The notes under the pieces are model-generated. The model was not told where the DNA came from. It saw only the letters and a program-made list of their open reading frames with translations, and made no database searches. The translations under genes were made by a program, and so were the position numbers. From positions 41,331-105,330 of the IMG/VR virus record IMGVR_UViG_3300044491_002068: a stretch of DNA of 64,000 bases; one strand, written 5' to 3'. Source of the DNA: a virus. Positions 49,745 through 63,721 of this stretch are shown here, piece by piece; within the stretch, counting starts at the first letter, position 1; each line of letters begins with the position of its first letter.

Positions 49745-50005
49745 TTAGTCTAGGTTTTTCTTAGGCTGAGACAAGGTGAATGCAGAATCAATCTCTTCGG
49801 CAGTAATCTTACCATCATCGGCATAAGCAGCCGCCAACTTCTGGAGAACAGTAGCCGCACTTGTGACACCCGCCAAGAACGCCGCCTTCCACGGATCAAT
49901 TCCACCAATAAGACTAGAGCCACCAATAATAGCCATAGCATTCATCATAAAGACGGCCATGATTCTGCCAGCAGTATTCCATACGAGTTTACTTGTCTGA
50001 GTCAT
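49745..50005 (-). CDS. Holin-like membrane protein
   Basis: Two TM segments; C-terminal DDGKIT.EEI..AF. Confidence 0.55.
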   Translation of the reverse strand: MTQTSKLVWNTAGRIMAVFMMNAMAIIGGSSLIGGIDPWKAAFLAGVTSAATVLQKLAAAYADDGKITAEEIDSAFTLSQPKKNLD

Positions 50006-50213
50006 CGCTTCTCTCATCATCTACATAGTCTAATACCGTACCAACAAGATGCAGTGCAAGACCGGCTACAGAAATATATATTCCTTGCTTTAACGTGGTT
50101 GACGATAAAGTTATCAGAACCAGTCCTGTGCCTGCCAAAGTCCAACCGAGATAAAACATCTCTCTAACGATGCGCCGCAATGAACCTATAATAGTTTTAA
50201 ATATTGTTCTCAT
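49989..50213 (-). CDS. Small membrane protein
   Basis: WTLAGTGLVLITLS; two TM segments. Confidence 0.55.
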   Translation of the reverse strand: MRTIFKTIIGSLRRIVREMFYLGWTLAGTGLVLITLSSTTLKQGIYISVAGLALHLVGTVLDYVDDERSDDSDK

Positions 50214-50227
50214 AGTGCCTCCATTCA

Positions 50228-52297
50228 CTAAGAACGCCTCTTTCTAGAAGAAGCCTTTTTCTTGTCTCCTCCGCCAGTGTCACCACCACCAGCGCTACCA
50301 CCACCGGAGCCTCCACCGCTTGGCCCGCCACCGCTAGCCCCAGATGCCGCAACCGCCACCGTCACTGCTGCTGTTGCGGCAACAACTGTACGACGAGTTT
50401 CAGTATCGACCGTCGAACCCTCAGCCACATACTGATTAAACGCCTCATCATCAAAAATATCAACCGCCGACTCAAACTCCTTTTTGACTTCATCGTCCGC
50501 ATCGTTAATTGCTGCAACCAGAATCACCTTAGCGGTGTCAGAAATCTTATCAAAGTTATCGTCAGTCACTAGACTTTCTATTTCGTCAACAGTTACGTCA
50601 CCGTCAACAACACCCAAAAACTCTTCTGCCAAATCTTCATCTAAAGTATCTAGTTCCTCAACTATTTTAACTTCTGCAGGGTCAACTTCAAGTAAGTCTA
50701 CGCCTTGAGTATTAATACCAAGTTGTTTAAACTCAACTTCAGTTTCAGCCGCTCGTTCTTCTTCTAGCGTCGGCGGCACGGTGGTTGTTGTAGGCGGTGT
50801 CCTCGGGATCGTCGTACTCGTTGTTGTACTCGTAGTGGGGGCGACTGTCGTCGTAGTCGTTGTCGATGTGGACGATGTGGTGGTTGTCGTGGTAGTACTT
50901 GTTGATGTAGTTGTAGTCGGGGTTACCGTAGTCGTCGTAGCCGGTACGGTTGTCGTTGTCGTTGATGGCGGTGCCTCCGTTGTCGTTGTTGTAGGCGCTA
51001 CCGTCGTCGTAGTCGTTGGCGGCAACGTCGTTGTTGTCGTTACAGGTATTGTAGTGGTTGTGGTTGTCGTTGGAGGCAAGGTCGTAGTCGTTGTTGTCGT
51101 CGTTGTAGTCGGAGGAACGGTGGTTGTCGTCGTTGTCGTCGGAGGAGTACCTTCTGAAACTTGAATTTCCATAGTCTCACCAACATGACAATCATTCTCA
51201 GAACCACAAGCAAGAATGTTAAAGTACCATACTGCCGTTCCTAAATCATCGTAAGCAACCGTGTAAGAAGTCGAAGAAATGTTTTGAGTGTAAGTAATGT
51301 TAGACTCATCTATCTCCCACGGATCACCAAGTTGGTTCCAAGCGATCTTGTAATGCGCAGGATCAACAAAACCATCGCTAGAAGCATCCCAACTAAACGT
51401 GAGGTCGCCAGTAGCGTCATCCCGCTCGTAACTCTGATTGTCTACTACGTCAGGCATGTTCATGATAGAAGTTGAGGCTATGGATGTCCAACTAGAGTAT
51501 AAAGCGTTCGTGTCGTTATCCGAACGGACCTTAACATTGAACAAACCATGTGCTTCGTTGAACAACTGCTCAATGTAAGAAGCACTGAACGTGTACTCAG
51601 CAACTAAAGCATTTTCGTCTCCGACGTTACCAGTTGCCACGCCATATGGTCCAGCGTTCCCATCGTCGTTCAGGCCAAACCCGATAGCGTAACGTTCTGG
51701 ATCAACGTTTCCGTCAGTTGGGGCATCCCAATCGGCCTTTACCGTACCGTTGTAGTAGTCAACGGTTAAAGTCAAGTTGGTAGGATCGCCTATCGTTTGA
51801 GGAATTGTCGTCGTGGTCGTCGTCGTGCTGGTCGTTGTTGGTGTACCGCCAGAAAGTTCATAGTTCTGGATCACCAACTCGTAGGTACCATCTCCCCAAT
51901 TTGAAGTACCGCCAATACCAAACTGTTGGCAGCAATATCCAGCCCTAATTCGATACTCGCCGGGGTCAAGGTCGATAACAATTTTCGATGAAACACACTG
52001 CCCTTGCCCGTGGTTACCGTCATCGTTTTCAGTTATCAGTGCGCCCGTCGATTCAGGATTATCGTCATACAGCCACAAGTACGGATCGGTAGTAAGAACC
52101 TCGCAGTTCTCGTTAGAGTTACCATAAATGTAAACAGTCTCAGTTTCCGATACCGTAAAGTACCAGTCAGACTCTTCAACCACCTCATACGACGAAGCCG
52201 AGGCCGTAGGGGAAAACCAAGCCAGTAACAGCAACCACACAAACATTGCTTTAGCAGCACGCCTGTACGTCCTACCACGTCTCCACATAACTTTCAC
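50228..52297 (-). CDS. Exported surface protein with PPC/FN3-like domains and a long Thr-rich linker
   Basis: Signal peptide ending ASA; DPYLWLY..ENDD..G.Y.I (PPC-like); poly-Thr at 50780-51150; hydrophobic and basic tail. Confidence 0.7.
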   Translation of the reverse strand: MKVMWRRGRTYRRAAKAMFVWLLLLAWFSPTASASSYEVVEESDWYFTVSETETVYIYGNSNENCEVLTTDPYLWLYDDNPESTGALITENDDGNHGQGQCVSSKIVIDLDPGEYRIRAGYCCQQFGIGGTSNWGDGTYELVIQNYELSGGTPTTTSTTTTTTTIPQTIGDPTNLTLTVDYYNGTVKADWDAPTDGNVDPERYAIGFGLNDDGNAGPYGVATGNVGDENALVAEYTFSASYIEQLFNEAHGLFNVKVRSDNDTNALYSSWTSIASTSIMNMPDVVDNQSYERDDATGDLTFSWDASSDGFVDPAHYKIAWNQLGDPWEIDESNITYTQNISSTSYTVAYDDLGTAVWYFNILACGSENDCHVGETMEIQVSEGTPPTTTTTTTVPPTTTTTTTTTTLPPTTTTTTTIPVTTTTTLPPTTTTTVAPTTTTTEAPPSTTTTTVPATTTTVTPTTTTSTSTTTTTTTSSTSTTTTTTVAPTTSTTTSTTIPRTPPTTTTVPPTLEEERAAETEVEFKQLGINTQGVDLLEVDPAEVKIVEELDTLDEDLAEEFLGVVDGDVTVDEIESLVTDDNFDKISDTAKVILVAAINDADDEVKKEFESAVDIFDDEAFNQYVAEGSTVDTETRRTVVAATAAVTVAVAASGASGGGPSGGGSGGGSAGGGDTGGGDKKKASSRKRRS

Positions 52298-52379
52298 CCC
52301 AAATACACAGTAACACCTTCTACTATTGTACCAGCCACAAAGACTTGCTAAATTCAGAGAATGCAGTATAATAGTGATT

Positions 52380-52598
52380 ATGCCTACATACGACTACAAA
52401 TGTGAAACATGTGGCGTGTTTGAACGCTTCCAGAAAATATCTGAGGCAAACCTGTCCGAATGCCCTACCTGTGGCAGTGGTGTAAAGAAACTTTTCAGCC
52501 CTCCGGGCGTAGTTGGGATGCCAAACGGACCTAAAAACACTGCCCCAACGTACAGGGGAGACAGGTCCCCTGTATGGAATAGCGCTCAGGCCGAGTGA
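52380..52598 (+). CDS. FmdB-like zinc-ribbon protein
   Basis: MPTYDYKC..CG..E......CP.CG..V.K; leaderless TTGCTA-N16-TATAAT-N7-ATG. Confidence 0.8.
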   Translation: MPTYDYKCETCGVFERFQKISEANLSECPTCGSGVKKLFSPPGVVGMPNGPKNTAPTYRGDRSPVWNSAQAE

Positions 52599-52599
52599 A

Positions 52600-53202
52600 A
52601 TGGGTACGTTCACCTTCATAACAGGAACAATGTCATCTGGAAAGACAACGCATCTACTTCAAACACACTTCAACATTGAATCGGCATTCCCCGGTCAAGT
52701 AATGCTTCTAAACAAAAACGATAGATCAGGCGAATCAGTATGCAGCAACCGAACAGGAGGCGCATCGCTATCTACTGGCCTAACTGACGACAGCAGCATA
52801 GTTGACATTATAACCAACGAAGAGCAGAGAACTAGGACAACCATAAGTCACGTTTTCATTGATGAAGCGCAGTTCTTGTCAAAAGACCAAGTTGAGTCAC
52901 TAGCCTACTTAGCGGATGTCCACGACATAAACGTTTATGCCTACGGTCTAATGACATCATACAAAGGAAAACTGTTCGACGCCACAATCCGAATATTAGA
53001 ATTGTGTGATAGGGTTATTCAAGTTAGCAACGGTATGCGATGTTGGTGCGGCAAAAGAGCCACACACAATGCACTATTCGTTGCTGGCGCTAAAGCATCA
53101 TCTGGTGCCACAACAATCGTTGACAACTCTGATATGATTGACTATCAGGTTATGTGTCGAAGACATTTCTTAGAGCACATAGAAAACACTTCTAAACCTT
53201 AG
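52600..53202 (+). CDS. tdk: Thymidine kinase
   Basis: GTMSSGKTT, FIDEAQFL, YGL.T.Y.G.LF, C.CG..ATHN, Y...CRRH. Confidence 0.88.
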   Translation: MGTFTFITGTMSSGKTTHLLQTHFNIESAFPGQVMLLNKNDRSGESVCSNRTGGASLSTGLTDDSSIVDIITNEEQRTRTTISHVFIDEAQFLSKDQVESLAYLADVHDINVYAYGLMTSYKGKLFDATIRILELCDRVIQVSNGMRCWCGKRATHNALFVAGAKASSGATTIVDNSDMIDYQVMCRRHFLEHIENTSKP

Positions 53203-54723: not shown

Positions 54724-55153
54724 ACTTCTAAGCGTAACATGGGACAAGCCGCTAGACACAACCGCACTTACAGTCAGGGCAAAGGGTTACTGGGAATACC
54801 TTAGCGATATTCCATACGAAGAAACAAAGTCAACCATCAAGAAGATGGGTGTGGCTGGTAGAAAATGGATGCCCAAACCCGGAGAACTAAGAATTGCCAC
54901 GATAGCAGAAATGCGTGACGAGCAACTACCTCCTGAACCTGAAGAGGCGTGGACAGTTCTACAATCTATAGGTCAGAAAATCTACAGCGGCACTTACGAC
55001 TACGACAAGCCACACCCAGTGCTTGCTGAAACTATCAAAAGGCTAGGAACAAACGCCACAGCCTTGACAACCAACTCAGACCGTGCTATGTTTATATCTC
55101 TTTACGAGAAGACACGGGAGTCATACATTTTGGAGAACTATGGAACCGATTGA
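54692..55153 (+). CDS. Replication protein (helicase loader/inhibitor G39P-like)
   Basis: W..L.D..Y......K......P.PGELR, PEEAW; precedes the primase-helicase. Confidence 0.55.
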   Translation: MDKHECKSIIELLSVTWDKPLDTTALTVRAKGYWEYLSDIPYEETKSTIKKMGVAGRKWMPKPGELRIATIAEMRDEQLPPEPEEAWTVLQSIGQKIYSGTYDYDKPHPVLAETIKRLGTNATALTTNSDRAMFISLYEKTRESYILENYGTD

Positions 55154-56939
55154 TAACGTACTATCACGACTAAACCACACAACATCAGGAAAAGAACAAT
55201 GGGACGCAACCTGCCCATGTCGCAATGACGACGAGAACCCTTCACTACGTGTTTCTGTAGGCAAGCAAGGTCAAGTACTCATGAAGTGCCTACGGGGCGG
55301 AGGATGCGACCTTAACGAAATTTGTGACTCTATCGGTTTAGAGATGGGTGACCTTTTTCCTAAGGACACCAAAAAGCCAAAGAAGAGTAAACTGGAACTA
55401 GTAGAAGCCTACCCATACTTTGATGCTGACGGAATACTAGTCATGGAAGTTTTGAGGTATGCCGACGAAACAGGTAAGAAGACATTCAGACAGCGGCGAC
55501 CAAACGAAAGTGGAGGTTGGGAATGGTCAACCTCAGACATTGTAAAGCCACTTTATCGTTTACCTCAAGTTATTGCCGCAAAAGAAAACGGTCTACCAAT
55601 CTATGTAGTCGAAGGTGAGAAAGACGTACACAGCCTAGAAGCAGTAGGTAAGGTTGCAACAACTAATCCGGGTGGTGCAGGAGCAGAGGGCCAAAACAAG
55701 TGGATGCCTCATCACACAGAAGCGCTCGCTGGAGCAAAAGTAATCATTATTTGCGATAACGACGAACCGGGATACCTGCACGCCAGAGCAGTAAACAAGA
55801 CGTTGACAGAAGCCGGTTGTAAGGTTAAGGTCTTTAAGCCGGGGAAACACAAAGACGTAAGCGACATGCTTGCAGCAGGGGAAGACTTGACAAATGGACT
55901 TGTGCCATTTGATGAAACTGTTGAAATTCAAACAGAAGAAACTAGTAGCCCCCTCGCTACTTTGATTACCAATTTAAGTGAATTAAAGAACGCTAATGTA
56001 AGCAACAACGTTCTATTAGGAAGAGTCGCCGCACAGTTCGACTCATTCCTGTCAACAAAAGACGAAGAATACACAGACACCGGCAACCTTGTTGAGTGGA
56101 CACCGTTCCTTGAAACAGACGTTGACTTATCATACGATTGGGTTATCCCCAATGTACTGGAACGACAAGAGCGTGTAATTGTTGTTGCCGCCGAGGGTGC
56201 AGGTAAGACCACGCTAGCACGACAGGTTGCGCTAATGTCAGCCGCAGGCATCCATCCTTTCAGGAGGGACGCTATGCCGCCAGTACGTACTCTCATGATC
56301 GACCTAGAAAACCCAGAGCGAATTATTCGCCGTACATCCATGCGAATCTACGACAAAGTTAAATGGTTCGGTAAGCATGAGGACATGGACGCACATCTTC
56401 TCATGAAGCCAGATGGCGTGAACCTACTGACAGCAAAAGATCGTGCATTGATTGAAGAGCACGTTGCGGCAGTAGAGCCAGACATCCTGTTCTTCGGCCC
56501 ACTATACAAGTCATTCATTGACCCCGGTGGGCGCACAGCAGAATCAGTTTCAATTGAAATCGCACGGTTCTTAGATTACATTAGACACACCTATAACTGT
56601 GCTCTCTGGATTGAACACCACGCACCACTAGGTTCAGGCGGACAACGTGACCTTCGACCATTCGGGTCAGCAGTATGGTCACGATGGTCAGAATTTGGTC
56701 TAGCCCTATCCCCCGACCCTACCGATCCCGAACTTATCGAATTCAAGCACTACCGTGGACAGAGAGAAGCCCGAGAATGGCCTGCACTGTGCAAGCGGGG
56801 AGAGACATGGCCATTTGAAGTCGTAGAGTTTTCTCAATACCAAAACTCTGTCTCACCACAAGGCTCAGGGAGAAGCGACGAACAACTTAACGAGGCATAC
56901 CAAAACGAAGAGTTTGACGACGAAGTTACCCCGTGGTAA
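55140..56939 (+). CDS. Primase-helicase (Zn finger + TOPRIM + RecA-type AAA_25 ATPase)
   Basis: CPC..D.NPSL...C..GC; VVEGEKD, DNDEPG, KD.SD; AAEGAGKT, DLEN, HH, P.GS. Confidence 0.88.
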   Translation: MEPIDNVLSRLNHTTSGKEQWDATCPCRNDDENPSLRVSVGKQGQVLMKCLRGGGCDLNEICDSIGLEMGDLFPKDTKKPKKSKLELVEAYPYFDADGILVMEVLRYADETGKKTFRQRRPNESGGWEWSTSDIVKPLYRLPQVIAAKENGLPIYVVEGEKDVHSLEAVGKVATTNPGGAGAEGQNKWMPHHTEALAGAKVIIICDNDEPGYLHARAVNKTLTEAGCKVKVFKPGKHKDVSDMLAAGEDLTNGLVPFDETVEIQTEETSSPLATLITNLSELKNANVSNNVLLGRVAAQFDSFLSTKDEEYTDTGNLVEWTPFLETDVDLSYDWVIPNVLERQERVIVVAAEGAGKTTLARQVALMSAAGIHPFRRDAMPPVRTLMIDLENPERIIRRTSMRIYDKVKWFGKHEDMDAHLLMKPDGVNLLTAKDRALIEEHVAAVEPDILFFGPLYKSFIDPGGRTAESVSIEIARFLDYIRHTYNCALWIEHHAPLGSGGQRDLRPFGSAVWSRWSEFGLALSPDPTDPELIEFKHYRGQREAREWPALCKRGETWPFEVVEFSQYQNSVSPQGSGRSDEQLNEAYQNEEFDDEVTPW

Positions 56940-56987
56940 CACCCTAAATATTTGACACACCACCAAAAGAAGGTGTAAAATACAAGT

Positions 56988-57070
56988 ATCGCTCAAATAC
57001 ACAATAACACCATTGGTATTTCCTCCAGCGATGTTAGCCCCGGCAAAACCTGCTGGGGCTAACTTATTTC
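56988..57070 (+). ncRNA. Candidate sRNA with a bulged CCUCC
   Basis: TTGACA-N18-TAAAAT promoter (56952-56981), nested stem, then a 13-bp terminator hairpin at 57033-57063. Confidence 0.6.
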
Positions 57071-57153
57071 TGACATAGCAGATTTGCTAAACGCACCGAA
57101 CTGTGGTATACTGGCTGACAGCAGTAAACAACTGTCAAAACAAAAGGAGCAAA

Positions 57154-57756
57154 ATGACCACAAACGAATACGCAGTTTTTCTTGACGTTGATGGAGTAAT
57201 CAACAGCCTAAACCACCTGTATCAAGGCGGAAAAGTTAAGTTTGACTACCACACACAGCCACACGTTGCAGGACAATACACTGTATGGGTTCCAGAATAC
57301 ATGGGACCCCTCGTACAAGCCATCGAAGCAAGTTCCGACCTGTACTGGCTTACCACATGGCGAGAGAAGGCCAACGAGCACATCTCACCAATCCTAAACA
57401 TCTCTTCCAGCACCAAGGTGATTGACGACGGCACCAATATTCGCACTGTATCGTGGAAGTACAACGCATGTCTAGACATCGCCAAGCAACTCAGCGAAGA
57501 CGGAAAGACCGTACTGTGGATCGAAGACTTCGGAGGACGCCACTACGACAAGCGACACAAGCAGTACTTGACCTATGTTGACACCGACGCACGCAATGAA
57601 GGAGTATTCCTCCCTCAGCACCTGCCAGCAGACTTCATGAGTCACATCATAAAGAATGGCGGATACACCGGCCCGACACACGTCGCCGCCCCCAACGAGA
57701 CTGGTAAGCCTAGCGCATACGCAATCTACCGTGACACACACGGGGTGACCGCCTGA
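57154..57756 (+). CDS. HAD-family phosphatase (Swiss-Army-knife type)
   Basis: FLDVDGV, W.TTW, WK, WIED. Confidence 0.75.
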   Translation: MTTNEYAVFLDVDGVINSLNHLYQGGKVKFDYHTQPHVAGQYTVWVPEYMGPLVQAIEASSDLYWLTTWREKANEHISPILNISSSTKVIDDGTNIRTVSWKYNACLDIAKQLSEDGKTVLWIEDFGGRHYDKRHKQYLTYVDTDARNEGVFLPQHLPADFMSHIIKNGGYTGPTHVAAPNETGKPSAYAIYRDTHGVTA

Positions 57757-58436
57757 TGACAAACGAACTATCAGTACTATCAGGAGGATTTGTCCGACTA
57801 GATGCCGTCAACGCCGACGACCTCAGCGTAGTGAACGCCGCACGAGTAAGTTTTGGGAAAAAGTCAGACACAATGACAGACGCAGACGACGGACTCGTAG
57901 GATTCCTGATGCGAGAAAAGCATGGAACACCATTCGAACACAACTTCTTCAGGTTCCACGTAAAGGCACCAATATTTGTAGTCAGAGAATGGTTCAGGCA
58001 CCGCATCGGATGGTCATACAACGAATACTCTGGCAGATACAGCGAAATCCCCACAGAAGCATACCTCCCCACAGGAGAGCAAATGCGAACCCAAACAGGG
58101 AAACCCGGAGCATACACGTTTGAACCAATGGAAAACGGTCAGTTCTCACAAGACAGAATCAAACTGTCCTACATGCAATCATTCGGCGCATACGAAAAAC
58201 TCCTAGAAGAAGGAGTAGCAAAAGAAGTAGCACGGATGGTACTACCAGTAGCGACATACACCGAATTTTACGCCACCACAAACGCACGGGCACTAATGAA
58301 CTTTATCAGTCTCCGAGGAGACCAAACCGCACAATGGGAAATCAGGCAATACTCAAACGCCCTAGAATACTTCCTATCAGAAAACATGCCCGCAACATAC
58401 AGACACTTTAAGAACAACGAAAATCAAGCACCCTGA
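57756..58436 (+). CDS. thyX: Flavin-dependent thymidylate synthase
   Basis: NAARVSF, HGTPFEH, REWFRHR..SYNEYSGRY, EVAR.VLP, AQWEIR. Confidence 0.96.
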   Translation: MTNELSVLSGGFVRLDAVNADDLSVVNAARVSFGKKSDTMTDADDGLVGFLMREKHGTPFEHNFFRFHVKAPIFVVREWFRHRIGWSYNEYSGRYSEIPTEAYLPTGEQMRTQTGKPGAYTFEPMENGQFSQDRIKLSYMQSFGAYEKLLEEGVAKEVARMVLPVATYTEFYATTNARALMNFISLRGDQTAQWEIRQYSNALEYFLSENMPATYRHFKNNENQAP

Positions 58437-58447
58437 AAGAGAGCAAA

Positions 58448-59314
58448 ATGAAATACAACCACAAAATTTTTTGGAACGATAAATACACAGGAGCCGAATA
58501 CGCATTCGACACCACCCGCAAAAGCGCAGAAATCGTGGAAGCAATCGGAACCCAAAACATTAGCGACCCCCAAGAACAAGTAGCCGAAGCCGAAAAGCAA
58601 ATAGGCTTAGCACTAACAAACGAATACTTCGACGCATTACAATACGGAACCCCGCTTTTCCTATCAGAAAGCAACGGATTCAAGTGGGACTACGGCATCT
58701 ACCAAATGGCCATCAACTCCACAGCAGGAGTAATGTCTGCAGTCCAGCACGCCCTAGACAACAACACCGTAGCAGGAAGCCTATCGTCAGGACTGCACCA
58801 CGCAAACCACGAACGGGGAATGGGATTCTGCACAGTCAACGGACTAGGAGTAGTCGCAAACTGGCTACAAAACCTTCACATCACCATCCTAGACTTCGAC
58901 GCACACTGCGGAGGAGGCACAGTAAGCATGATTCGGCACCACGGAATGCAAGACAGAGTTGAAGAGTACGACATCTCAACTAACAAGTTTGACGACTACG
59001 AAGAAGACAGTACCCACAACATCCGCATCGCAACAAACGACGCACAGTACTTAAAGACCGTAGATCAAACACTAGACGGCATCAAGCCCGACACAGAACT
59101 CGTATTGTACAATGCGGGAACAGACCCACATCCAAGAATTACACATGATGCACTAGCAGAACGGGACCGTACAGTATTCCAATGGGCAAAAGACAACAAC
59201 AAGCCCATCGCATACGTCCTAGCAGGCGGATACACCATGTCACAAACAATGGAAGAACTCGTTCAATCACACATCAACACCCTAGATGCCGCTGACAGCA
59301 CCATTCAATTGTGA
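58448..59314 (+). CDS. Histone-deacetylase-family (Zn-dependent) deacetylase
   Basis: GLHHA....GFC..N, ILDFDAH.G.GT, YNAG.DP, VLAGGY. Confidence 0.88.
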   Translation: MKYNHKIFWNDKYTGAEYAFDTTRKSAEIVEAIGTQNISDPQEQVAEAEKQIGLALTNEYFDALQYGTPLFLSESNGFKWDYGIYQMAINSTAGVMSAVQHALDNNTVAGSLSSGLHHANHERGMGFCTVNGLGVVANWLQNLHITILDFDAHCGGGTVSMIRHHGMQDRVEEYDISTNKFDDYEEDSTHNIRIATNDAQYLKTVDQTLDGIKPDTELVLYNAGTDPHPRITHDALAERDRTVFQWAKDNNKPIAYVLAGGYTMSQTMEELVQSHINTLDAADSTIQL

Positions 59315-59326
59315 TAAACTAAAAAC

Positions 59327-60292
59327 ATGAACGAAATCACAGTCATAGACAACTACGAATACAACGGTGAAAGAACAGACACCGCCGGATTCTACGAAAA
59401 ATATGGCTTCGCAGTTATCCCCAACGCAGTCCCCGACACGTCACTAGACATGTACGGGGATTGTTGGGATGCAAACTTCAACACCCCCGACAACCCCCAC
59501 TTCGTAGGCTGGGAAGACGACAAAGCATACATGCACGTCCCAGAACTAAAAGAAGTACTCTGCCACAAAGGCGTAAACGACTTCTTCAGAAAAATCGACA
59601 TCGCAGTAGCGCTACACGTAACAAAAACACGGATGAACGTTCAACACACAGGATGGCACCACGACGCAACCCACCCACACGAAATAGGCCCAAAAAACTA
59701 TGTAGGCGGACTCGTAGCATTAGGTGACTGCAACGAAACAAACGGCGCAATCGAAGTAATCCCCGGATCACACAAATGGGACCTCAACTACCGAGAACGA
59801 TACAGCAACCCAGACAAAAGCGGATTCATCCACGGAGACGAATTCGAAGAACACCGACAAAAAATAAACGCACCCATCGTACAAATCCACGCCCAAAAAG
59901 GCGACCTGCAAGTATGGCACGGACGATCCGTACACCGAGCATCACAACCAACAGACAACACTACACGCAGACCAGCAGTAGTAGCACACTGGTGCAACAG
60001 GCTCGTAGCCGAAGAAGAAGTAGAAAAAGCAGGAGGACACGTCCCCTACGACACAATGGCAGACGACCTACTCACAAACAAATCAAGATCAAACGAACAC
60101 TTCTTCCAACGATGGGGAGAAGACGGCGGATTCTATTACCCCAACTGCACCATCACACGCACATGGCTAAGCAGAACCCACCCAGAAGTACCATACGACA
60201 AAGTACTATGGGAAGAACTACCATCATACGGAATTTACCCCACAGACGGAGACCCAAACCTCCTACTCCCAGACGGCGGCGGACAATACTAA
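59327..60292 (+). CDS. PhyH-family 2OG-Fe(II) dioxygenase
   Basis: WHHD, VALGD....NGA..VIPGSH, GDL.VWHG..VH; leaderless CTGACA-N17-TAAACT-N6-ATG. Confidence 0.82.
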   Translation: MNEITVIDNYEYNGERTDTAGFYEKYGFAVIPNAVPDTSLDMYGDCWDANFNTPDNPHFVGWEDDKAYMHVPELKEVLCHKGVNDFFRKIDIAVALHVTKTRMNVQHTGWHHDATHPHEIGPKNYVGGLVALGDCNETNGAIEVIPGSHKWDLNYRERYSNPDKSGFIHGDEFEEHRQKINAPIVQIHAQKGDLQVWHGRSVHRASQPTDNTTRRPAVVAHWCNRLVAEEEVEKAGGHVPYDTMADDLLTNKSRSNEHFFQRWGEDGGFYYPNCTITRTWLSRTHPEVPYDKVLWEELPSYGIYPTDGDPNLLLPDGGGQY

Positions 60293-60300
60293 ACTCCGAC

Positions 60301-60912
60301 ATGCACACAGAAATAACACAACACCCACTAATACAACTCAACGCCTACACACGCACACTCACAGGAATCAACAACGAAAAAATTACACAACAAATACTCA
60401 ACGACTCCACACCAGTAGACCCAAACCTACAACTACACAACCACCACAACCCACACCACACCTACTACGAAGACGTACTACCCCCACGCACCCCCGAAAT
60501 AACACAACTAGAAAACGAAATAAAAACAACAATCGAAACAATAACCAACCAACAATACAAAATAACAGAACTCTGGTCAATCACAACACACCCCGGCCAA
60601 TCAATAATCACACACAACCACAAACTCAACACACACCTACACCCCGAAGAATACTACTCATTCGCATACTACCCTTACGCCCCAAAAGGTTCAAACCCGT
60701 TACAATTCCAAATCAACCACAGCAACACAATAGACCAAATAGTTAGCATCCCAGTCGAAACAGGAAAACTCATAATATTCAACTCGTACATAAACCACCA
60801 CACACAACGCCAACACAACAACGACATACGAATAAACATAAGCGGAAACCTGTCACCACAAACACCCAGAACAACACCAAACAACGACTGGACCCCATAC
60901 CACACCCGATAA
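60301..60912 (+). CDS. Putative 2OG-Fe(II) oxygenase
   Basis: W.....PG....H.H, S..YY, G.LIIF.S...H.......RI.IS.N. The true start is ATG 60301, not the track start at 59776. Confidence 0.7.
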   Translation: MHTEITQHPLIQLNAYTRTLTGINNEKITQQILNDSTPVDPNLQLHNHHNPHHTYYEDVLPPRTPEITQLENEIKTTIETITNQQYKITELWSITTHPGQSIITHNHKLNTHLHPEEYYSFAYYPYAPKGSNPLQFQINHSNTIDQIVSIPVETGKLIIFNSYINHHTQRQHNNDIRINISGNLSPQTPRTTPNNDWTPYHTR

Positions 60913-60949
60913 ATTTGCCAACCACAACAAAATATGGTAAAATAGCGGC

Positions 60950-61270
60950 ATGGAACCATACGGAACACTCCCAACCTACACAGACACAGTAGACTACCTC
61001 ACCGAAGCAAACCCAGAAGCCCTCTACGCAGACGGCCTAGAAGAAGCCTGCATCGGACACACCGAAATCTACAAAACACACCCACGAGGCGGAAAATATA
61101 AACTACCCCTCGCCGTATACAGCAAACAAAAAATAATTAAACTACTCATCGAACGAGACGGCATGACCAACGAAGAAGCCGAAGAATACGCAGAATACAA
61201 CATTTACAGCGCATACATGGGCGACCACACACCCCTCTACCTAGACGAAACATACCACGTCAACCTGTAA
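60950..61270 (+). CDS. Conserved phage hypothetical protein
   Basis: ADG.E.A.IG, VYS..KII..L...DGMT.EEA.EY..YNI..AY.G..TP; leaderless TTGCCA-N17-TAAAAT-N6-ATG. Confidence 0.75.
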   Translation: MEPYGTLPTYTDTVDYLTEANPEALYADGLEEACIGHTEIYKTHPRGGKYKLPLAVYSKQKIIKLLIERDGMTNEEAEEYAEYNIYSAYMGDHTPLYLDETYHVNL

Positions 61271-63157
61271 ATGAAAAAACTGTACCTAGACGGCACAAAA
61301 CTCGTCCTCAAAACACCCTACAACAAAGACGAAATAACAGCCCTAAAAACATCGTTCCCCAACGCCCGCTGGGACAAACTCAACAAACACTGGACACTAC
61401 CCCTCAACACCCTGAAACAAGCAATCATCTTCGCCAACTCATGGAACATAGACGTGGACGAAGAACTCATCCACCTACAACTACCCGACCACCCAATAGG
61501 CGAAACCACCATACGACTCGAAAAAAACATCCTAAAAATCAACGTCCCCTACGACACCCTACAAATCAGCGACCTCAAATCCATCCCCGGCATCAAATGG
61601 AACCCCCAACACAACCAATGGGAAACACCATACACAAACGTCCACGAACTCATCCAATGGGCAACCAAATACAACCACCCAATACCCCAACACATCCAAA
61701 CACAAGCACAAATCGAAACCAAAAAAGCACAACACGCCCAAGAACTCACACAAGCCACCGACGCAAACATAACCATACCCACACTCCAACTAGACCTCTA
61801 CCCATACCAAAAAGCAGGCGTACAATACGCCACCGAAAAACAACGCACCTTCATCGCAGACGAAATGGGCCTCGGCAAAAGCCTCCAAGCCCTCGCCACC
61901 ACAGAACACACCAACCAATACCCAGCCCTCATCGTATGCCCAACCAGCCTCACAGAAGACTGGAAAACAAAAATCGAACAAGCCCTACCACACCGCACCA
62001 CCCAAACCATCGAAGGCCGCAAAACCCCCAACATGACCGAAACCGACTACACCATAATCGGCTACCCCAACATACACACACAAAAACAACACCTCAACAA
62101 CCAAAACTACAACACCCTCATCCTAGACGAATCACACTACTGCAAAAACCCAGACGCCCAACGAACAAAAGCCGCCAAAAACCTAGCCAAAAACATCCCA
62201 AACACCGGCAACATCCTACTCCTCACCGGCACCCCCATCACCAACATGCCAGCAGAATACGCCCCACAACTAGAAATCCTAGGCCACATAGAACAATTCG
62301 GCGGCAAATGGAACTTCTACAAACGCTACTGCGGAGCATACCGAGACAACTGGGGACACTGGCAAACCCACGGAGCCACCAACCAACAAGAACTCCTACA
62401 AAAACTACAAACAATCTGCTACATCCGCAGAGAAAAACAACACGTCCTCCCCGACCTACCCCCAATCACATACAACACCATCCACACCACAATGGACAAA
62501 AAACACCGCACCATGTACAACCACGCCCTCAACGACCTCCAAGAATGGTACACCCAACAACAAGAACAACTCGCCATCCAACAAGGCAACAACCCAAACC
62601 AAGCCCGAATCCGAGCACACTACGCCACCCAAAACTACGAAAACCTCATCCAACTCACAGAACTCAGAAAAATCGCCGCCCTCAGCAAAATCACCCACGC
62701 CCTAGAATGGACAGAAAACGCAAACAACCAAGGACAAAAAATCGTCATAGCCGCCCACCACCGCCACATAGTACAAACCCTAGCAAACGAACTCAACGCC
62801 CCAATGATCATAGGCGGACAACCACCAAAAGACACCGAAAAAGCAAAACACCAATTCCAAAACAACCCCAACACCAAAAACATCATCATCTCAATAGACG
62901 CCGCCGCACACGGACACACCCTCACCACATCACACAACATGCTATTCATCGAAGCACCATGGACCCCCGCCAAATACCACCAAACATGCGCCCGAATCCA
63001 CAGAATAGGACAAACCCAACCAGCAACAATCCACAACCTCATAAACCCAAACACAATCGACACACACATCTACCAAACCCTACAAAACAAAACCCAAAAA
63101 ACACAACCAGCCATAACACCAACAGCCATCCAAAACATACTCAACACCAAACCCTGA
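61271..63157 (+). CDS. SNF2-family helicase with two N-terminal HARP-like repeats
   Basis: LYPYQ..G, ADEMGLGKS, LDESH, LTGTP..N, RIHRIGQ; duplicated PY....LK..P..W.....W..P. Confidence 0.88.
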   Translation: MKKLYLDGTKLVLKTPYNKDEITALKTSFPNARWDKLNKHWTLPLNTLKQAIIFANSWNIDVDEELIHLQLPDHPIGETTIRLEKNILKINVPYDTLQISDLKSIPGIKWNPQHNQWETPYTNVHELIQWATKYNHPIPQHIQTQAQIETKKAQHAQELTQATDANITIPTLQLDLYPYQKAGVQYATEKQRTFIADEMGLGKSLQALATTEHTNQYPALIVCPTSLTEDWKTKIEQALPHRTTQTIEGRKTPNMTETDYTIIGYPNIHTQKQHLNNQNYNTLILDESHYCKNPDAQRTKAAKNLAKNIPNTGNILLLTGTPITNMPAEYAPQLEILGHIEQFGGKWNFYKRYCGAYRDNWGHWQTHGATNQQELLQKLQTICYIRREKQHVLPDLPPITYNTIHTTMDKKHRTMYNHALNDLQEWYTQQQEQLAIQQGNNPNQARIRAHYATQNYENLIQLTELRKIAALSKITHALEWTENANNQGQKIVIAAHHRHIVQTLANELNAPMIIGGQPPKDTEKAKHQFQNNPNTKNIIISIDAAAHGHTLTTSHNMLFIEAPWTPAKYHQTCARIHRIGQTQPATIHNLINPNTIDTHIYQTLQNKTQKTQPAITPTAIQNILNTKP

Positions 63158-63252
63158 CATAACACAAACCGAACAACACCATAAAAATATAGCACACCAG
63201 CCCCAAGGGGGTTGATTCGGGGTCGAAAAGTTTGCGGGACTACCTCGGTTTG

Positions 63253-63283
63253 TCGAACAGGTGTTCGTCGAACGTATGTTCTG
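63253..63283. promoter_or_regulatory. Two tandem actinobacterial LexA (SOS) boxes
   Basis: TCGAACAGGTGTTCGT and TCGAACGTATGTTCTG versus the consensus TCGAAC-N4-GTTCGA. Confidence 0.75.
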
Positions 63284-63552
63284 TGGATAACTCTGTTGAT
63301 AACTCGGGTGTTCTGTGGATAACTCGGTCGTTTGACTGTGGATAAGTCCCGACTTGTCCACAAGTTGGCTGTGGATAACTTAACGATTTTTAGGTGCCGG
63401 TATTCCGTTACGAGTTCGGAGTTTTCCACAGGGTTTTCCACAGGGTTGTGGACAACTTCGGGTGGTTTTCTGTGGATAATGGCCTAGTTTTCCACAAGTT
63501 TTTGTGGATAACTTTAGTAGTTTTTACTAAACTGTGGATAAGTTGGGGATAA
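63282..63552. repeat. Array of 14 DnaA boxes (oriC-like or DnaA-titrating)
   Basis: 7x TGTGGATAA, 2x TTGTCCACA-type, 3x TTTTCCACA and 2 other one-mismatch boxes. Confidence 0.92.
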
Positions 63553-63721
63553 CGTGGACTGATGATCGGTAGCGGGTGTCCGTTTCGTTCGTCATTGCCT
63601 ACATAGTGCAGCCGATATGTGACAATACCGGAAGGGTCGCCGGTTCGGTGTCGGTTGCTCTTTCGGGTGTCCGTGTCGTCTCTGCCGATTGTCTCCCGCT
63701 ATGGCGAGTGTATGGCGAGTA

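What the first reader, a model, noticed from the sequence alone, without database searches (positions are those of the whole stretch)
57100..63720. Extreme graded A+C skew that flips abruptly at ~63205, next to the DnaA array
Seen: the + strand appears mildly A/C-rich across the window and becomes extreme approaching 63.2 kb. G+T is 11/60 in 62581-62640 and 5/60 in 63061-63120, then flips at CCCCAAGGGGG (~63201-63211) to 40/60 in both 63421-63480 and 63661-63720. The bias reaches the protein level: the SNF2 motif region reads AAAHGHTLTTS and the protein is rich in Q/T/N/H/P/K. Established: leading strands are usually G+T-rich and skew inverts at origins. Inference: this independently supports a bidirectional origin here. 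The steep gradient suggests prolonged single-strand exposure near the origin (D-loop or strand displacement, or repeated abortive initiation) or a first-injected or terminal segment.
Basis: partly seen in the sequence, partly recalled or inferred. Interest (0 to 1): 0.75.

Follow-up and report, generated by a model that had tools for sequence, protein, structure and literature searches.

The report
Point-anchored extreme strand skew in phage
In this uncultured actinobacterial phage and its relatives, about 6 kb of working genes next to a probable replication origin have lost nearly all G and T from one strand at freely variable sites; the loss fades e-fold per kilobase from one fixed point, which looks like the scar of a one-strand DNA process whose mechanism is unknown.

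Summary
In the SNF2 helicase gene (61271-63157), 0 of 628 codons end in T and only 4 avoidable codons end in G. The bias fits an exponential with an e-fold length of about 1 kb. It rises to at least 100-fold at an abrupt boundary near 63205.

It is not an artefact or a recent import. More than 30 relatives from separate metagenomes share it, and roughly 75 more distant SNF2 homologues lack it. Primase-helicase and ThyX orthologues are more skewed the closer they lie to the boundary. An intein inserted in one relative's SNF2 has taken on the same bias.

Right of the boundary, every relative has a conserved GAAAAGT element. It is followed by a hypervariable repeat array: DnaA boxes here, and other iterons or LexA boxes elsewhere. 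This supports an origin-like anchor.

The mirror-image flip is not general. Several relatives lack it, and the right arm of a relative is unskewed.

The best reading is a strand-specific mutation or repair footprint of DNA synthesis that starts at the anchor and runs leftward. The exact chemistry is unresolved.

The skew matches GRINS in kind but is not duplicated. This scan has noted similar anchored skews on other phage DNA. I found no published description for phages.

The parts
56952..57063 (+). Promoter-like site (TTGACA-18-TAAAAT, 56952-56981) and a strong terminator-like hairpin (57033-57063) between the primase-helicase gene and the first skewed gene. This is roughly where the skew becomes detectable.
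55083..56939 (+). Primase-helicase (Toprim plus AAA_25), at baseline composition here (third-position G+T 0.40). Its orthologues are more skewed in relatives where the gene lies closer to the anchor.
57103..57756 (+). HAD-like phosphatase gene, where the gradient begins (third-position G+T 0.31).
57756..58436 (+). ThyX thymidylate synthase gene (third-position G+T 0.19; four-fold sites 0.10).
58448..59314 (+). Histone-deacetylase-family (amidohydrolase) gene (third-position G+T 0.19).
59327..60292 (+). PhyH-type dioxygenase gene (third-position G+T 0.10).
60301..60912 (+). 2OG-Fe(II) oxygenase gene, with its likely start at ATG 60301 (third-position G+T about 0.05).
60950..61270 (+). Small gene of unknown family, conserved in relatives (four-fold G+T 0.02).
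61271..63157 (+). SNF2-family helicase gene. No codon ends in T, only 4 avoidable codons end in G, and the amino-acid composition is reshaped.
57100..63205 (.). The skew domain: the plus strand loses G and T and the minus strand loses C and A. The excess fits E*exp(-d/L) with L about 1.0 kb for both transitions.
63158..63205 (+). Non-coding tail after the SNF2 stop. It is still A+C-rich (G+T 0.15) and holds an A+T-rich stretch (TAAAAATAT) conserved in several relatives.
63201..63231 (.). The anchor: a G+C cluster and short hairpin (CCCCAAGGGGG, 63201-63211), then the conserved GAAAAGT(TTGCGGGAC) element (63225-63231). The skew stops here within about 10 nt.
63254..63281 (.). Two LexA (SOS) boxes of the CGAAC-N4-GTTC type. 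Relatives carry up to 7 at this place.
63282..63552 (.). Array of 14 DnaA boxes (7 perfect, 10 of 14 reading on the minus strand). It is specific to this phage and a few relatives; others have different iterons at this place.
63700..63720 (+). Tandem ATGGCGAGT motif (period 11). It sits 541-631 nt after the SNF2 stop in at least 9 relatives and recurs further right in several of them.
63722..64000 (+). C+T-only repeat tract (about 1% A in its last 200 nt, 63801-64000) running into the contig end. It is the likely reason the assembly stops here.

Best explanation
The domain is the long-term footprint of a strand-specific, distance-limited DNA process. The process starts at one fixed point (about 63205-63231) on the edge of an origin-like control region and runs leftward through the replication-module genes.

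At every site free to vary, it drives G to A and T to C on the plus strand, which is the same as C to T and A to G on the minus strand. Its strength is at least 100-fold above background at the anchor and falls e-fold per about 1 kb. Silent sites have therefore become a two-letter (A/C) alphabet that now changes only by A<->C transversions, and the encoded proteins have been dragged toward Thr, Asn, Gln, His, Lys and Pro.

The most likely cause is initiation of DNA synthesis at the anchor, unidirectional or strongly biased leftward. Either the old minus strand is repeatedly left single-stranded and deaminates (a D-loop, strand displacement or an R-loop). Or the first kilobases of new minus strand are made by an error-prone step that favours G.T mispairs.

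Shown: the pattern, its anchor, its exponential form, its dependence on position, its age and its conservation. Inferred: that the anchor is a replication start, the direction of synthesis, and the chemistry.
For: 1. Extreme and specific pattern. There are no T-ending codons among 628, all 56 Leu codons are CTN, and all Gln/Lys/Glu codons are CAA/AAA/GAA. Four-fold G+T is 0.02.
2. Exponential form. An exponential fits better than a step or a linear decline (negative log-likelihood 1411.9 against 1461.5 and 1429.9). The e-fold length is 1.0-1.2 kb. T-to-C and G-to-A decay with the same length, 0.99 and 1.00 kb, which points to one cause.
3. Positional, not gene-specific. Primase-helicase orthologues have third-position G+T of 0.28-0.36 at 3.8-4.7 kb and 0.40-0.52 at 5 kb or more (Spearman rho 0.72, p 1.5e-4). 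ThyX gives rho 0.51 (p 0.02). SSB and TK, further out, show no trend. A LAGLIDADG intein inside a relative's SNF2 gene is also about 75-100% A/C at third positions.
4. Derived in this clade. About 75 other SNF2 homologue loci have third-position G+T of 0.41-0.64 and two are partly skewed (0.27, 0.31). This clade has 0.02-0.06.
5. Ancient and at equilibrium. 93% of third-position changes between relatives are A<->C. Differences between near-identical pairs are mostly transitions (11 of 16), as expected if transitions arise but do not persist. The A<->C rate is not raised.
6. Non-coding DNA after the stop codon is also A+C-rich (G+T 0.15), so this is not codon selection.
7. Origin-like anchor. 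A conserved GAAAAGT element is followed by a hypervariable array of DnaA boxes, LexA boxes or lineage-specific iterons at the same place across the clade.
8. Weak skew of the same sign across the rest of the contig. Outside the zone, the plus strand is A+C-rich at four-fold sites in genes of both orientations: G+T 0.39 in plus-strand genes (n=1414) and 0.34 in minus-strand genes (n=12785).
9. Per-site selection strong enough to override amino-acid choice at hundreds of sites is implausible for a bulk property. A 100-fold mutational or conversion bias would do it.
Against: 1. No experiment shows replication starting here.
2. An unskewed relative (L068) has 9 DnaA boxes plus 5 LexA boxes with no skew. 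Relatives with the same SNF2-GAAAAGT-array layout range from extreme to none: third-position G+T 0.03-0.05, 0.29, 0.37 and 0.44. An origin alone is therefore not sufficient, and a lineage-specific factor is needed.
3. All genes in the zone are on the plus strand in every relative examined. Independence from transcription direction could not be tested inside the zone. The zone's right edge is the 3' end of an operon, and its left start is near a terminator and promoter.
4. The direction inferred from the sign depends on the model. Deamination or G.T-mispair errors imply that the minus strand is exposed or newly made. Repair specific for G:T mismatches would imply the opposite.
5. The phage polymerase has a proofreading domain. 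No deaminase or NucS gene was found in the roughly 70% of the genome available.
6. The right arm of a relative is neutral rather than mirrored.
Confidence: 0.55

Rival explanations
1. Biased gene conversion. A fixed nick or DNA end at the anchor is resected, and the 3'-ended plus strand invades a homologous copy (the phage encodes its own RecA). Heteroduplexes carrying G:T-type mismatches are cut or rejected, as by the actinobacterial NucS/EndoMS system, while A:C mismatches survive. A/C alleles on the invading strand therefore spread. The exponential would then be the tract-length distribution.
For: The phage encodes a bacterial-type RecA (454 bits), SSB and a Cas4/PD-(D/E)XK nuclease. An exponential with a length constant of about 1 kb is typical of resection or conversion tracts. 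Both transitions share one decay length. GRINS, the closest published skew, are tied to gene conversion in Actinobacteria. This model acts like per-site selection, so it can override protein constraints.
Against: No NucS gene is present in the available 70% of the genome, so host NucS would have to be assumed. No end or nick has been mapped at the anchor. The terminase gene is 28 kb away. The pattern of recent versus old substitutions does not distinguish this from mutation bias.
Confidence: 0.17
2. Selection on base composition itself. Possible targets are a structure-free A/C messenger or single strand, a palindrome-free and therefore restriction-proof first-acting segment, or a G+T-rich minus strand favoured as a RecA-loading substrate.
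For: A strand made of A and C cannot pair with itself. The zone has fewer palindromes in absolute terms (75 against 124 four-mers and 9 against 23 six-mers per 3 kb). Genes in the zone lack clear Shine-Dalgarno sequences. The pattern has been held for the whole divergence of the clade.
Against: Relative to composition, palindrome avoidance is no stronger in the zone (-1.6 sd) than in a control region (-4.5 sd). G-quadruplex motifs are not enriched. A smooth exponential across gene borders, the same decay for both transitions, dependence on distance for one and the same gene, and wholesale amino-acid change are hard to obtain from a bulk-property benefit spread over thousands of sites. Close relatives with the same layout do without it.
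Confidence: 0.13
3. Transcription-linked mutagenesis of this operon. Either antisense or primer transcription runs leftward from the control region and exposes the minus strand. Or head-on collisions between leftward forks and the rightward-transcribed operon lead to error-prone patch synthesis of the template strand.
For: The zone ends at the operon's 3' end and begins near a terminator and promoter. All zone genes are co-oriented and would be head-on to a leftward fork. LexA boxes next to the anchor would tie activity to the SOS response, when error-prone host polymerases are induced.
Against: Ordinary transcription exposes the coding strand and would give the opposite sign. No leftward sigma-70-like promoter was found right of the anchor, and no Rfam RNA was found. 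The decline is exponential from the anchor rather than operon-wide. Extremely skewed relatives such as L008 and L112 have no LexA boxes.
Confidence: 0.1
4. A recent import of genes from a donor with this codon bias, or an assembly or sequencing artefact.
For: None beyond the oddity of the composition.
Against: More than 30 independent contigs from different metagenomes carry it. Genes of unrelated families share it in a smooth gradient. The Pfam domains are intact. Substitutions between relatives show long residence at equilibrium. Distant homologues are unskewed.
Confidence: 0.01

Closest known systems
[quoted passage not shown] 2021, PMC8256042)
   Same: Both show intense, correlated GC and TA skews (keto against amino) inside functional genes. 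The skew is strongest at third codon positions. It shifts amino-acid use toward Pro, Thr, His and Gln and away from Gly, Val, Cys and Trp. Both are enriched in Actinobacteria, and the mechanism is unknown.
   Different: GRINS are defined as duplicated regions (over 80% identity to another copy) linked to gene conversion. They can flip sign within 1 kb and have no anchor. This domain is single-copy, has one sign, is about 6 kb long, decays exponentially from a fixed point beside an origin-like array, and lies in a phage.
Vertebrate mitochondrial strand asymmetry (gradient with time spent single-stranded during strand-displacement replication)
   Same: The coding (light-strand-like) strand is A+C-rich. 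The implied changes are C to T and A to G on the other strand. The bias varies with position relative to an origin and is strongest at third positions (established knowledge; PMC3269015 abstract).
   Different: Here the bias is far stronger (silent G+T at or below 0.02). It is confined to a few kb with an e-fold length of 1 kb rather than spread genome-wide. It is highest next to the presumed origin. Both transitions have the same length constant.
Replication-associated GC/keto skew switch at bacterial origins (chirochores)
   Same: The strand that runs 5' to 3' away from the anchor is G+T-rich. DnaA boxes sit at the switch point. A weak, orientation-independent skew of the same sign covers the remaining 98 kb.
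   Different: There is no general mirror image on the other side. The amplitude is at least 100-fold rather than a few percent, and the decay is steep and local.
Pol I mutation footprint next to the ColE1 plasmid origin (from my own knowledge, not checked in a paper here)
   Same: A unidirectional origin after which the first few hundred to few thousand bases are copied by a different polymerase, giving a strand-specific mutation gradient that decays with distance.
   Different: That footprint is seen with engineered error-prone Pol I in the laboratory. It is not known as a natural compositional domain, and no polymerase hand-off has been shown here.

Membership tests
GRINS (Nivina et al. 2021) | Region longer than 500 bp with mean absolute GC and TA skews above 0.15, the two skews correlated | tested here: met
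   GC skew is -0.45 to -0.51 and AT skew +0.53 to +0.60 over 60-63 kb. Both decay with the same length constant.
GRINS (Nivina et al. 2021) | Duplicated: over 80% DNA identity to another region of the same locus | tested here: not met
   blastn of 57100-63205 against the whole 105-kb contig returns only the self match. The contig is about 71% complete.
Replication-origin skew switch (chirochore boundary) | The skew changes sign at the origin, with a mirrored skew on the other arm | tested here: not met
   The flip to G+T 0.61-0.65 lasts about 500 bp in the window. It is absent in 7 equally skewed relatives. The right arm of relative G001 is neutral.
Replication-origin skew switch (chirochore boundary) | The skew follows the DNA strand, not gene orientation | tested here: inconclusive
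   This is met for the weak contig-wide skew (plus-strand G+T 0.39 in plus-strand genes and 0.34 in minus-strand genes). It cannot be tested inside the extreme zone, because all real genes there are on the plus strand in every relative.
DnaA-dependent (oriC-type) origin | Cluster of DnaA boxes next to an unwinding element | tested here: inconclusive
   There are 14 boxes with at most 1 mismatch in 271 bp, including all 7 perfect boxes of the window. Only a short A+T-rich stretch (TAAAAATAT, about 63183-63194) lies nearby. Most relatives have other arrays instead. Firing was not tested.
Mitochondrial-type single-strand deamination gradient | The bias grades with position relative to the origin and consists of C-to-T and A-to-G changes on the exposed strand | tested here: met
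   The gradient is exponential, both transition classes are involved, and orthologues depend on distance. The direction of change is inferred from composition, not from observed mutations.
Mitochondrial-type single-strand deamination gradient | Strand-displacement replication that leaves one strand single-stranded | not testable with these tools
   This needs nascent-strand or single-strand mapping in infected cells.
SNF2-family helicase (the most skewed gene) | SNF2-related ATPase domain plus helicase C-terminal domain | tested here: met
   PF00176 at 2.4e-31 and PF00271 at 1.7e-13. 3184 homologues were found at E of 1e-10 or better, and some carry a precomputed HARP domain hit.

The most novel reading that the evidence does not exclude
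A so far undescribed strand-specific DNA transaction starts at a defined site beside the phage origin. It could be a persistent displacement loop, a start made by an SOS or other error-prone polymerase, or mismatch-biased strand exchange. It raises transitions in one direction by at least 100-fold over about 1 kb. It has recoded whole genes into a two-letter silent alphabet. It would be the same unexplained process that creates GRINS in actinobacterial chromosomes, so the phage locus would be the first place where that process has a mappable start point.
Probability: 0.3. Interest if true: 0.9.

Novelty: new variant of a known kind. Interest (0 to 1): 0.78.

Why it matters
The mechanism behind intense keto/amino skews (GRINS) is an open question, because in chromosomes they have no visible starting point. 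Here the same kind of skew has four properties that make the question testable:
- a sharp anchor, located to about 10 nt;
- a simple exponential form;
- a conserved sequence element at the anchor;
- natural variants with the same layout whose skew is extreme, moderate or absent.

One can map what starts at the anchor, compare lineages with and without the skew, and measure the local mutation spectrum.

The locus also shows how far a directional DNA-level force can reshape a working enzyme. About half of its residues come from six A/C-coded amino acids. It also leaves silent sites free to change only by A<->C transversions. This distorts identity-based comparisons and phylogenies, produces long spurious open frames, and should be allowed for when annotating such phages.

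Tried and rejected
- Recent import or artefact: rejected.
- Selection for G-quadruplexes on the minus strand: no enrichment over phase-preserving shuffles (0 observed against 0.6 expected; C-runs 77 against 80).
- Palindrome or restriction avoidance as the driver: avoidance relative to composition is genome-wide and weaker in the zone than in a control region.
- Raised A<->C transversion rate: not seen. Four-fold A<->C divergence in SNF2 (0.26-0.40) is below the two-state saturation level, while ordinary genes are saturated.
- Transitions-only test at amino-acid level: inconclusive. Compared with unskewed homologues, G-to-A (49 against 12 in reverse) and G-to-C (25 against 4) are both one-sided, which multi-step paths can explain at 40% identity.
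- Known RNA families in 56.8-64 kb: none.
- Close DNA relatives among deposited phage genomes: none, only short ThyX or helicase hits at 70-83% identity.
- Phage-encoded NucS, tyrosine integrase and dCMP/cytidine deaminase: none in the two contigs, each about 70% complete.
- DnaA or LexA boxes as a sufficient cause: rejected. The unskewed relative L068 has both, and skewed relatives L008 and L112 have neither.
An alignment-based metagenome scan gave L107, L124-126 and L129 instead.
- Literature: four full-text searches found no description of such anchored skews in phages.
Full report
**Setting.**
The window is the last 64 kb of a single 105,330-bp virus contig. The contig is rated about 71% complete. 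It ends in a C+T-only repeat. It encodes a large terminase, RecA, SSB, thymidine kinase, a primase-helicase, and a family-A polymerase with a proofreading domain.

- G+T per 200 nt falls from about 0.45 to 0.14-0.29 between 57 and 63.2 kb. It then jumps to 0.61-0.65 just after CCCCAAGGGGG at 63201-63211.
- The skewed stretch is filled with real genes on the plus strand: a HAD-like phosphatase, ThyX, a deacetylase-family enzyme, a PhyH dioxygenase, a 2OG-Fe(II) oxygenase, a small conserved gene and an SNF2 helicase.
- In the SNF2 gene, none of 628 codons ends in T. Only four codons that had a choice end in G. All 56 Leu codons are CTN, and all Gln, Lys and Glu codons end in A.
- Four-fold sites are 98% A+C.
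- The 48 non-coding bases after the stop codon are also A+C-rich (G+T 0.15), so the force acts on DNA, not on codon choice.

**Shape of the gradient.**
I excluded ATG and TGG and measured third-position G+T in 50-codon blocks against distance from 63205. The value is 0 of 483 over the first 1.6 kb. It climbs smoothly across gene borders to the baseline of 0.39 by about 6-7 kb. A model in which an excess rate decays exponentially fits much better than a step or a straight line (negative log-likelihood 1411.9 against 1461.5 and 1429.9). The e-fold length is 1.0-1.2 kb, and the excess at the anchor is of order 100-260 fold. I also fitted the loss of T among pyrimidine-ending codons and the loss of G among purine-ending codons separately. 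Their decay lengths are 0.99 and 1.00 kb, so one cause drives both.

**Conserved, old, and tied to position rather than to genes.**
- Twelve viral contigs and about thirty metagenome contigs encode the same SNF2 protein at about 60-90% identity. They show the same profile.
- Among 80 loci of more distant SNF2 homologues, about 75 have third-position G+T of 0.41-0.64 and two are partly skewed (0.27 and 0.31). This clade has 0.02-0.06.
- The protein's share of K, N, T, Q, H and P is 0.47 against 0.26. Its share of G, V, F, W and C is 0.09 against 0.20.
- Between relatives, 93% of polarised third-position changes are A<->C transversions. The state is therefore an old equilibrium.
- Only near-identical pairs show mostly transitions (11 of 16). 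This is what is expected if transitions keep arising but do not last.
- The A<->C rate itself is not raised.
- The same gene is more skewed when it lies nearer the anchor. Primase-helicase orthologues have 0.28-0.36 at 3.8-4.7 kb and 0.40-0.52 beyond 5 kb (rho 0.72, p 1.5e-4). ThyX has 0.08-0.14 at 2.2-2.9 kb and 0.19-0.36 further out (rho 0.51). SSB and TK, beyond 5.4 kb, show no trend. These points are not phylogenetically independent.
- A LAGLIDADG intein inserted in the SNF2 gene of one sub-clade has also become about 75-100% A/C at third positions.

**What lies at the anchor.**
The A+C-rich run stops within about 10 nt in all relatives. The stop is about 45-50 nt after the SNF2 stop codon, at a G+C-rich stretch. 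A conserved element, GAAAAGT (often GAAAAGTTTGCGGGAC), follows at +53 to +164. Beyond it comes a region of about 500 bp whose content is hypervariable:
- in this phage, two LexA boxes and 14 DnaA boxes, including all seven perfect boxes of the window;
- in L129, six DnaA boxes;
- in L001, L002, L011, L105 and L121, four to seven LexA boxes;
- in L011, L107, L108, L114/L117 and L116, unrelated iterons.

The region is closed in at least nine relatives by a tandem ATGGCGAGY motif at +541 to +631. This motif recurs further right in several of them. A conserved frame with interchangeable arrays of protein-binding repeats is what a replication origin with swapped initiator specificity looks like.

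**What does not fit a classical bidirectional origin.**
- The G+T-rich flip is not general. Seven relatives with equally extreme SNF2 genes have G+T of 0.42-0.49 in the 650 bp to the right.
- In the window, the flip owes something to the orientation of the boxes (10 of 14 read on the minus strand).
- One relative's contig (G001, 102.6 kb) runs 16.8 kb past the anchor. Its right arm has higher G+C (about 0.52), small genes, and no skew in either gene orientation. The cumulative keto skew therefore bends at the anchor but does not turn.
- On the left, outside the zone, the plus strand is mildly A+C-rich at four-fold sites in both plus-strand genes (G+T 0.39) and minus-strand genes (0.34). A weak skew of the same sign thus covers at least 98 kb.
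- Together this points to a one-sided, leftward process rather than a symmetric one.

**An origin-like array is not enough.**
L068, an unskewed relative, has nine DnaA and five LexA boxes with flat composition around them. Lineages with the same SNF2-GAAAAGT-array layout have SNF2 third-position G+T of 0.03-0.05, 0.29 (L107), 0.37 (L129) and 0.44 (L124-126). Some lineage-specific factor sets the strength.

**Mechanism.**
The sign means that the minus strand gains G and T. Four kinds of event give that sign when they start at the anchor and move left:
- deamination of a displaced or lagging-template minus strand (a D-loop, strand displacement, or an R-loop made by leftward priming);
- error-prone synthesis of the new minus strand with G.T-type mispairs before hand-over to the proofreading polymerase;
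- strand exchange from a fixed end, with rejection of G:T heteroduplexes;
- conflict-induced patch synthesis on the template strand of this head-on operon.

Three alternatives give the opposite sign and are set aside on that ground. These are ordinary transcription, a fork stalled on arrival from the left, and deamination of resected 3' tails.

The exponential with a length of 1 kb suggests a process with a constant chance of ending per base, such as processivity, tract length or loop extension. I cannot separate the sub-models with sequence alone. I found no G-quadruplex enrichment, no zone-specific palindrome avoidance, no leftward promoter, no known RNA, and no phage NucS, deaminase or integrase in the available 70% of two genomes. 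Selection on composition as such remains possible. It is hard to reconcile with the smooth distance law, the shared decay of both transitions, the wholesale amino-acid change, and the close relatives that lack the skew.

**Comparison with known systems.**
- The closest published phenomenon is GRINS (PMC8256042). GRINS show the same correlated GC/TA skew inside working genes, the same third-position emphasis and the same amino-acid shifts, are enriched in Actinobacteria, and have an unknown mechanism. GRINS are defined as duplicated regions, and this one is single-copy. It is therefore not a member, and it has an anchor and a distance law that GRINS lack.
- It works like the mitochondrial single-strand gradient, but it is far stronger, local, and highest next to the presumed start.
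- Full-text searches found no report of such domains in phages.
- Earlier notes of this scan describe similar point-anchored skews in other actinobacterial phages, and a look-alike of this very locus on another genome. I used them as leads only.

**Limits.**
The genome is incomplete and the host is uncultured. All zone genes share one orientation. The correlation tests ignore phylogeny.

Noticed in passing
L009:8321-11278 (also L010, L137-L139; proteins P0008, P0009, P0013): In one sub-clade the SNF2 gene carries an in-frame insertion of about 357 aa right after the Walker A GLGK motif. It has two LAGLIDADG motifs and a C-terminal HN, so it is an intein with a homing endonuclease. Its third positions have largely taken on the local A/C bias.
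   Followed up: partly
window 63700-63720; also L008, L011, L105, L111, L112, L116, L121, L123 at +541 to +631 after the SNF2 stop: A tandem ATGGCGAGY-N-(A/C)TGGCGAGY motif, always in the same orientation, closes the variable array region. It recurs one to three more times further right in several relatives. It may be a phage-specific operator or promoter element of the early region.
   Followed up: partly
window 63722-64000: A C+T-only repeat of 280 nt or more (units of about 12-14 nt) runs into the contig end, with about 1% A in its last 200 nt. Relatives have other low-complexity tracts at the same place (CTCTCCGGCC x10 in L117; G-rich repeats in L126). These tracts probably break assemblies, and such tracts can hinder polymerases.
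   Followed up: partly
window 61441-63162 (+) and minus-strand ORFs 62635-63069 and 63070-63441: Because T (plus strand) and A (minus strand) are so rare, stop codons are scarce. Long spurious open frames appear in other frames and on the opposite strand of the SNF2 gene, which is a trap for gene callers.
   Followed up: yes
window 63254-63281; L001, L002, L011, L105, L121 right of the SNF2 stop: Clusters of up to seven LexA (SOS) boxes within 500 bp sit beside the anchor in many relatives. This suggests that the control region is held silent by host LexA until DNA damage, yet no integrase was found in the available 70% of the genome.
   Followed up: partly
window 57756-63157, upstream of gene starts: Genes in the skewed zone mostly lack recognisable Shine-Dalgarno sequences. 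Their leaders are short and A-rich, and several starts abut or overlap the previous stop (ATGA at the HAD/ThyX junction).
   Followed up: no
G001 (relative), about 16.8 kb to the right of the anchor: The region right of the anchor has higher G+C (about 0.52 against 0.45), many small ORFs, and no DNA or protein similarity to any part of this contig. 12 of 13 related contigs break within 4 kb of the anchor. This looks like a hypervariable early region.
   Followed up: partly
window 1-64000 generally (control region 50001-53000): Short palindromes are strongly under-represented relative to composition outside the zone (four-mers 124 against 183 expected; six-mers 23 against 47). This is consistent with genome-wide restriction avoidance.
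   Followed up: partly
window 61271-61800 (SNF2 N-terminus): The N-terminal 175 residues contain two copies of a W-x-x-x-x-K-x-W-x-x-P type repeat. Some homologues carry a precomputed HARP-domain hit (PF07443), so the enzyme may be an annealing helicase of the SMARCAL1 type.
   Followed up: no
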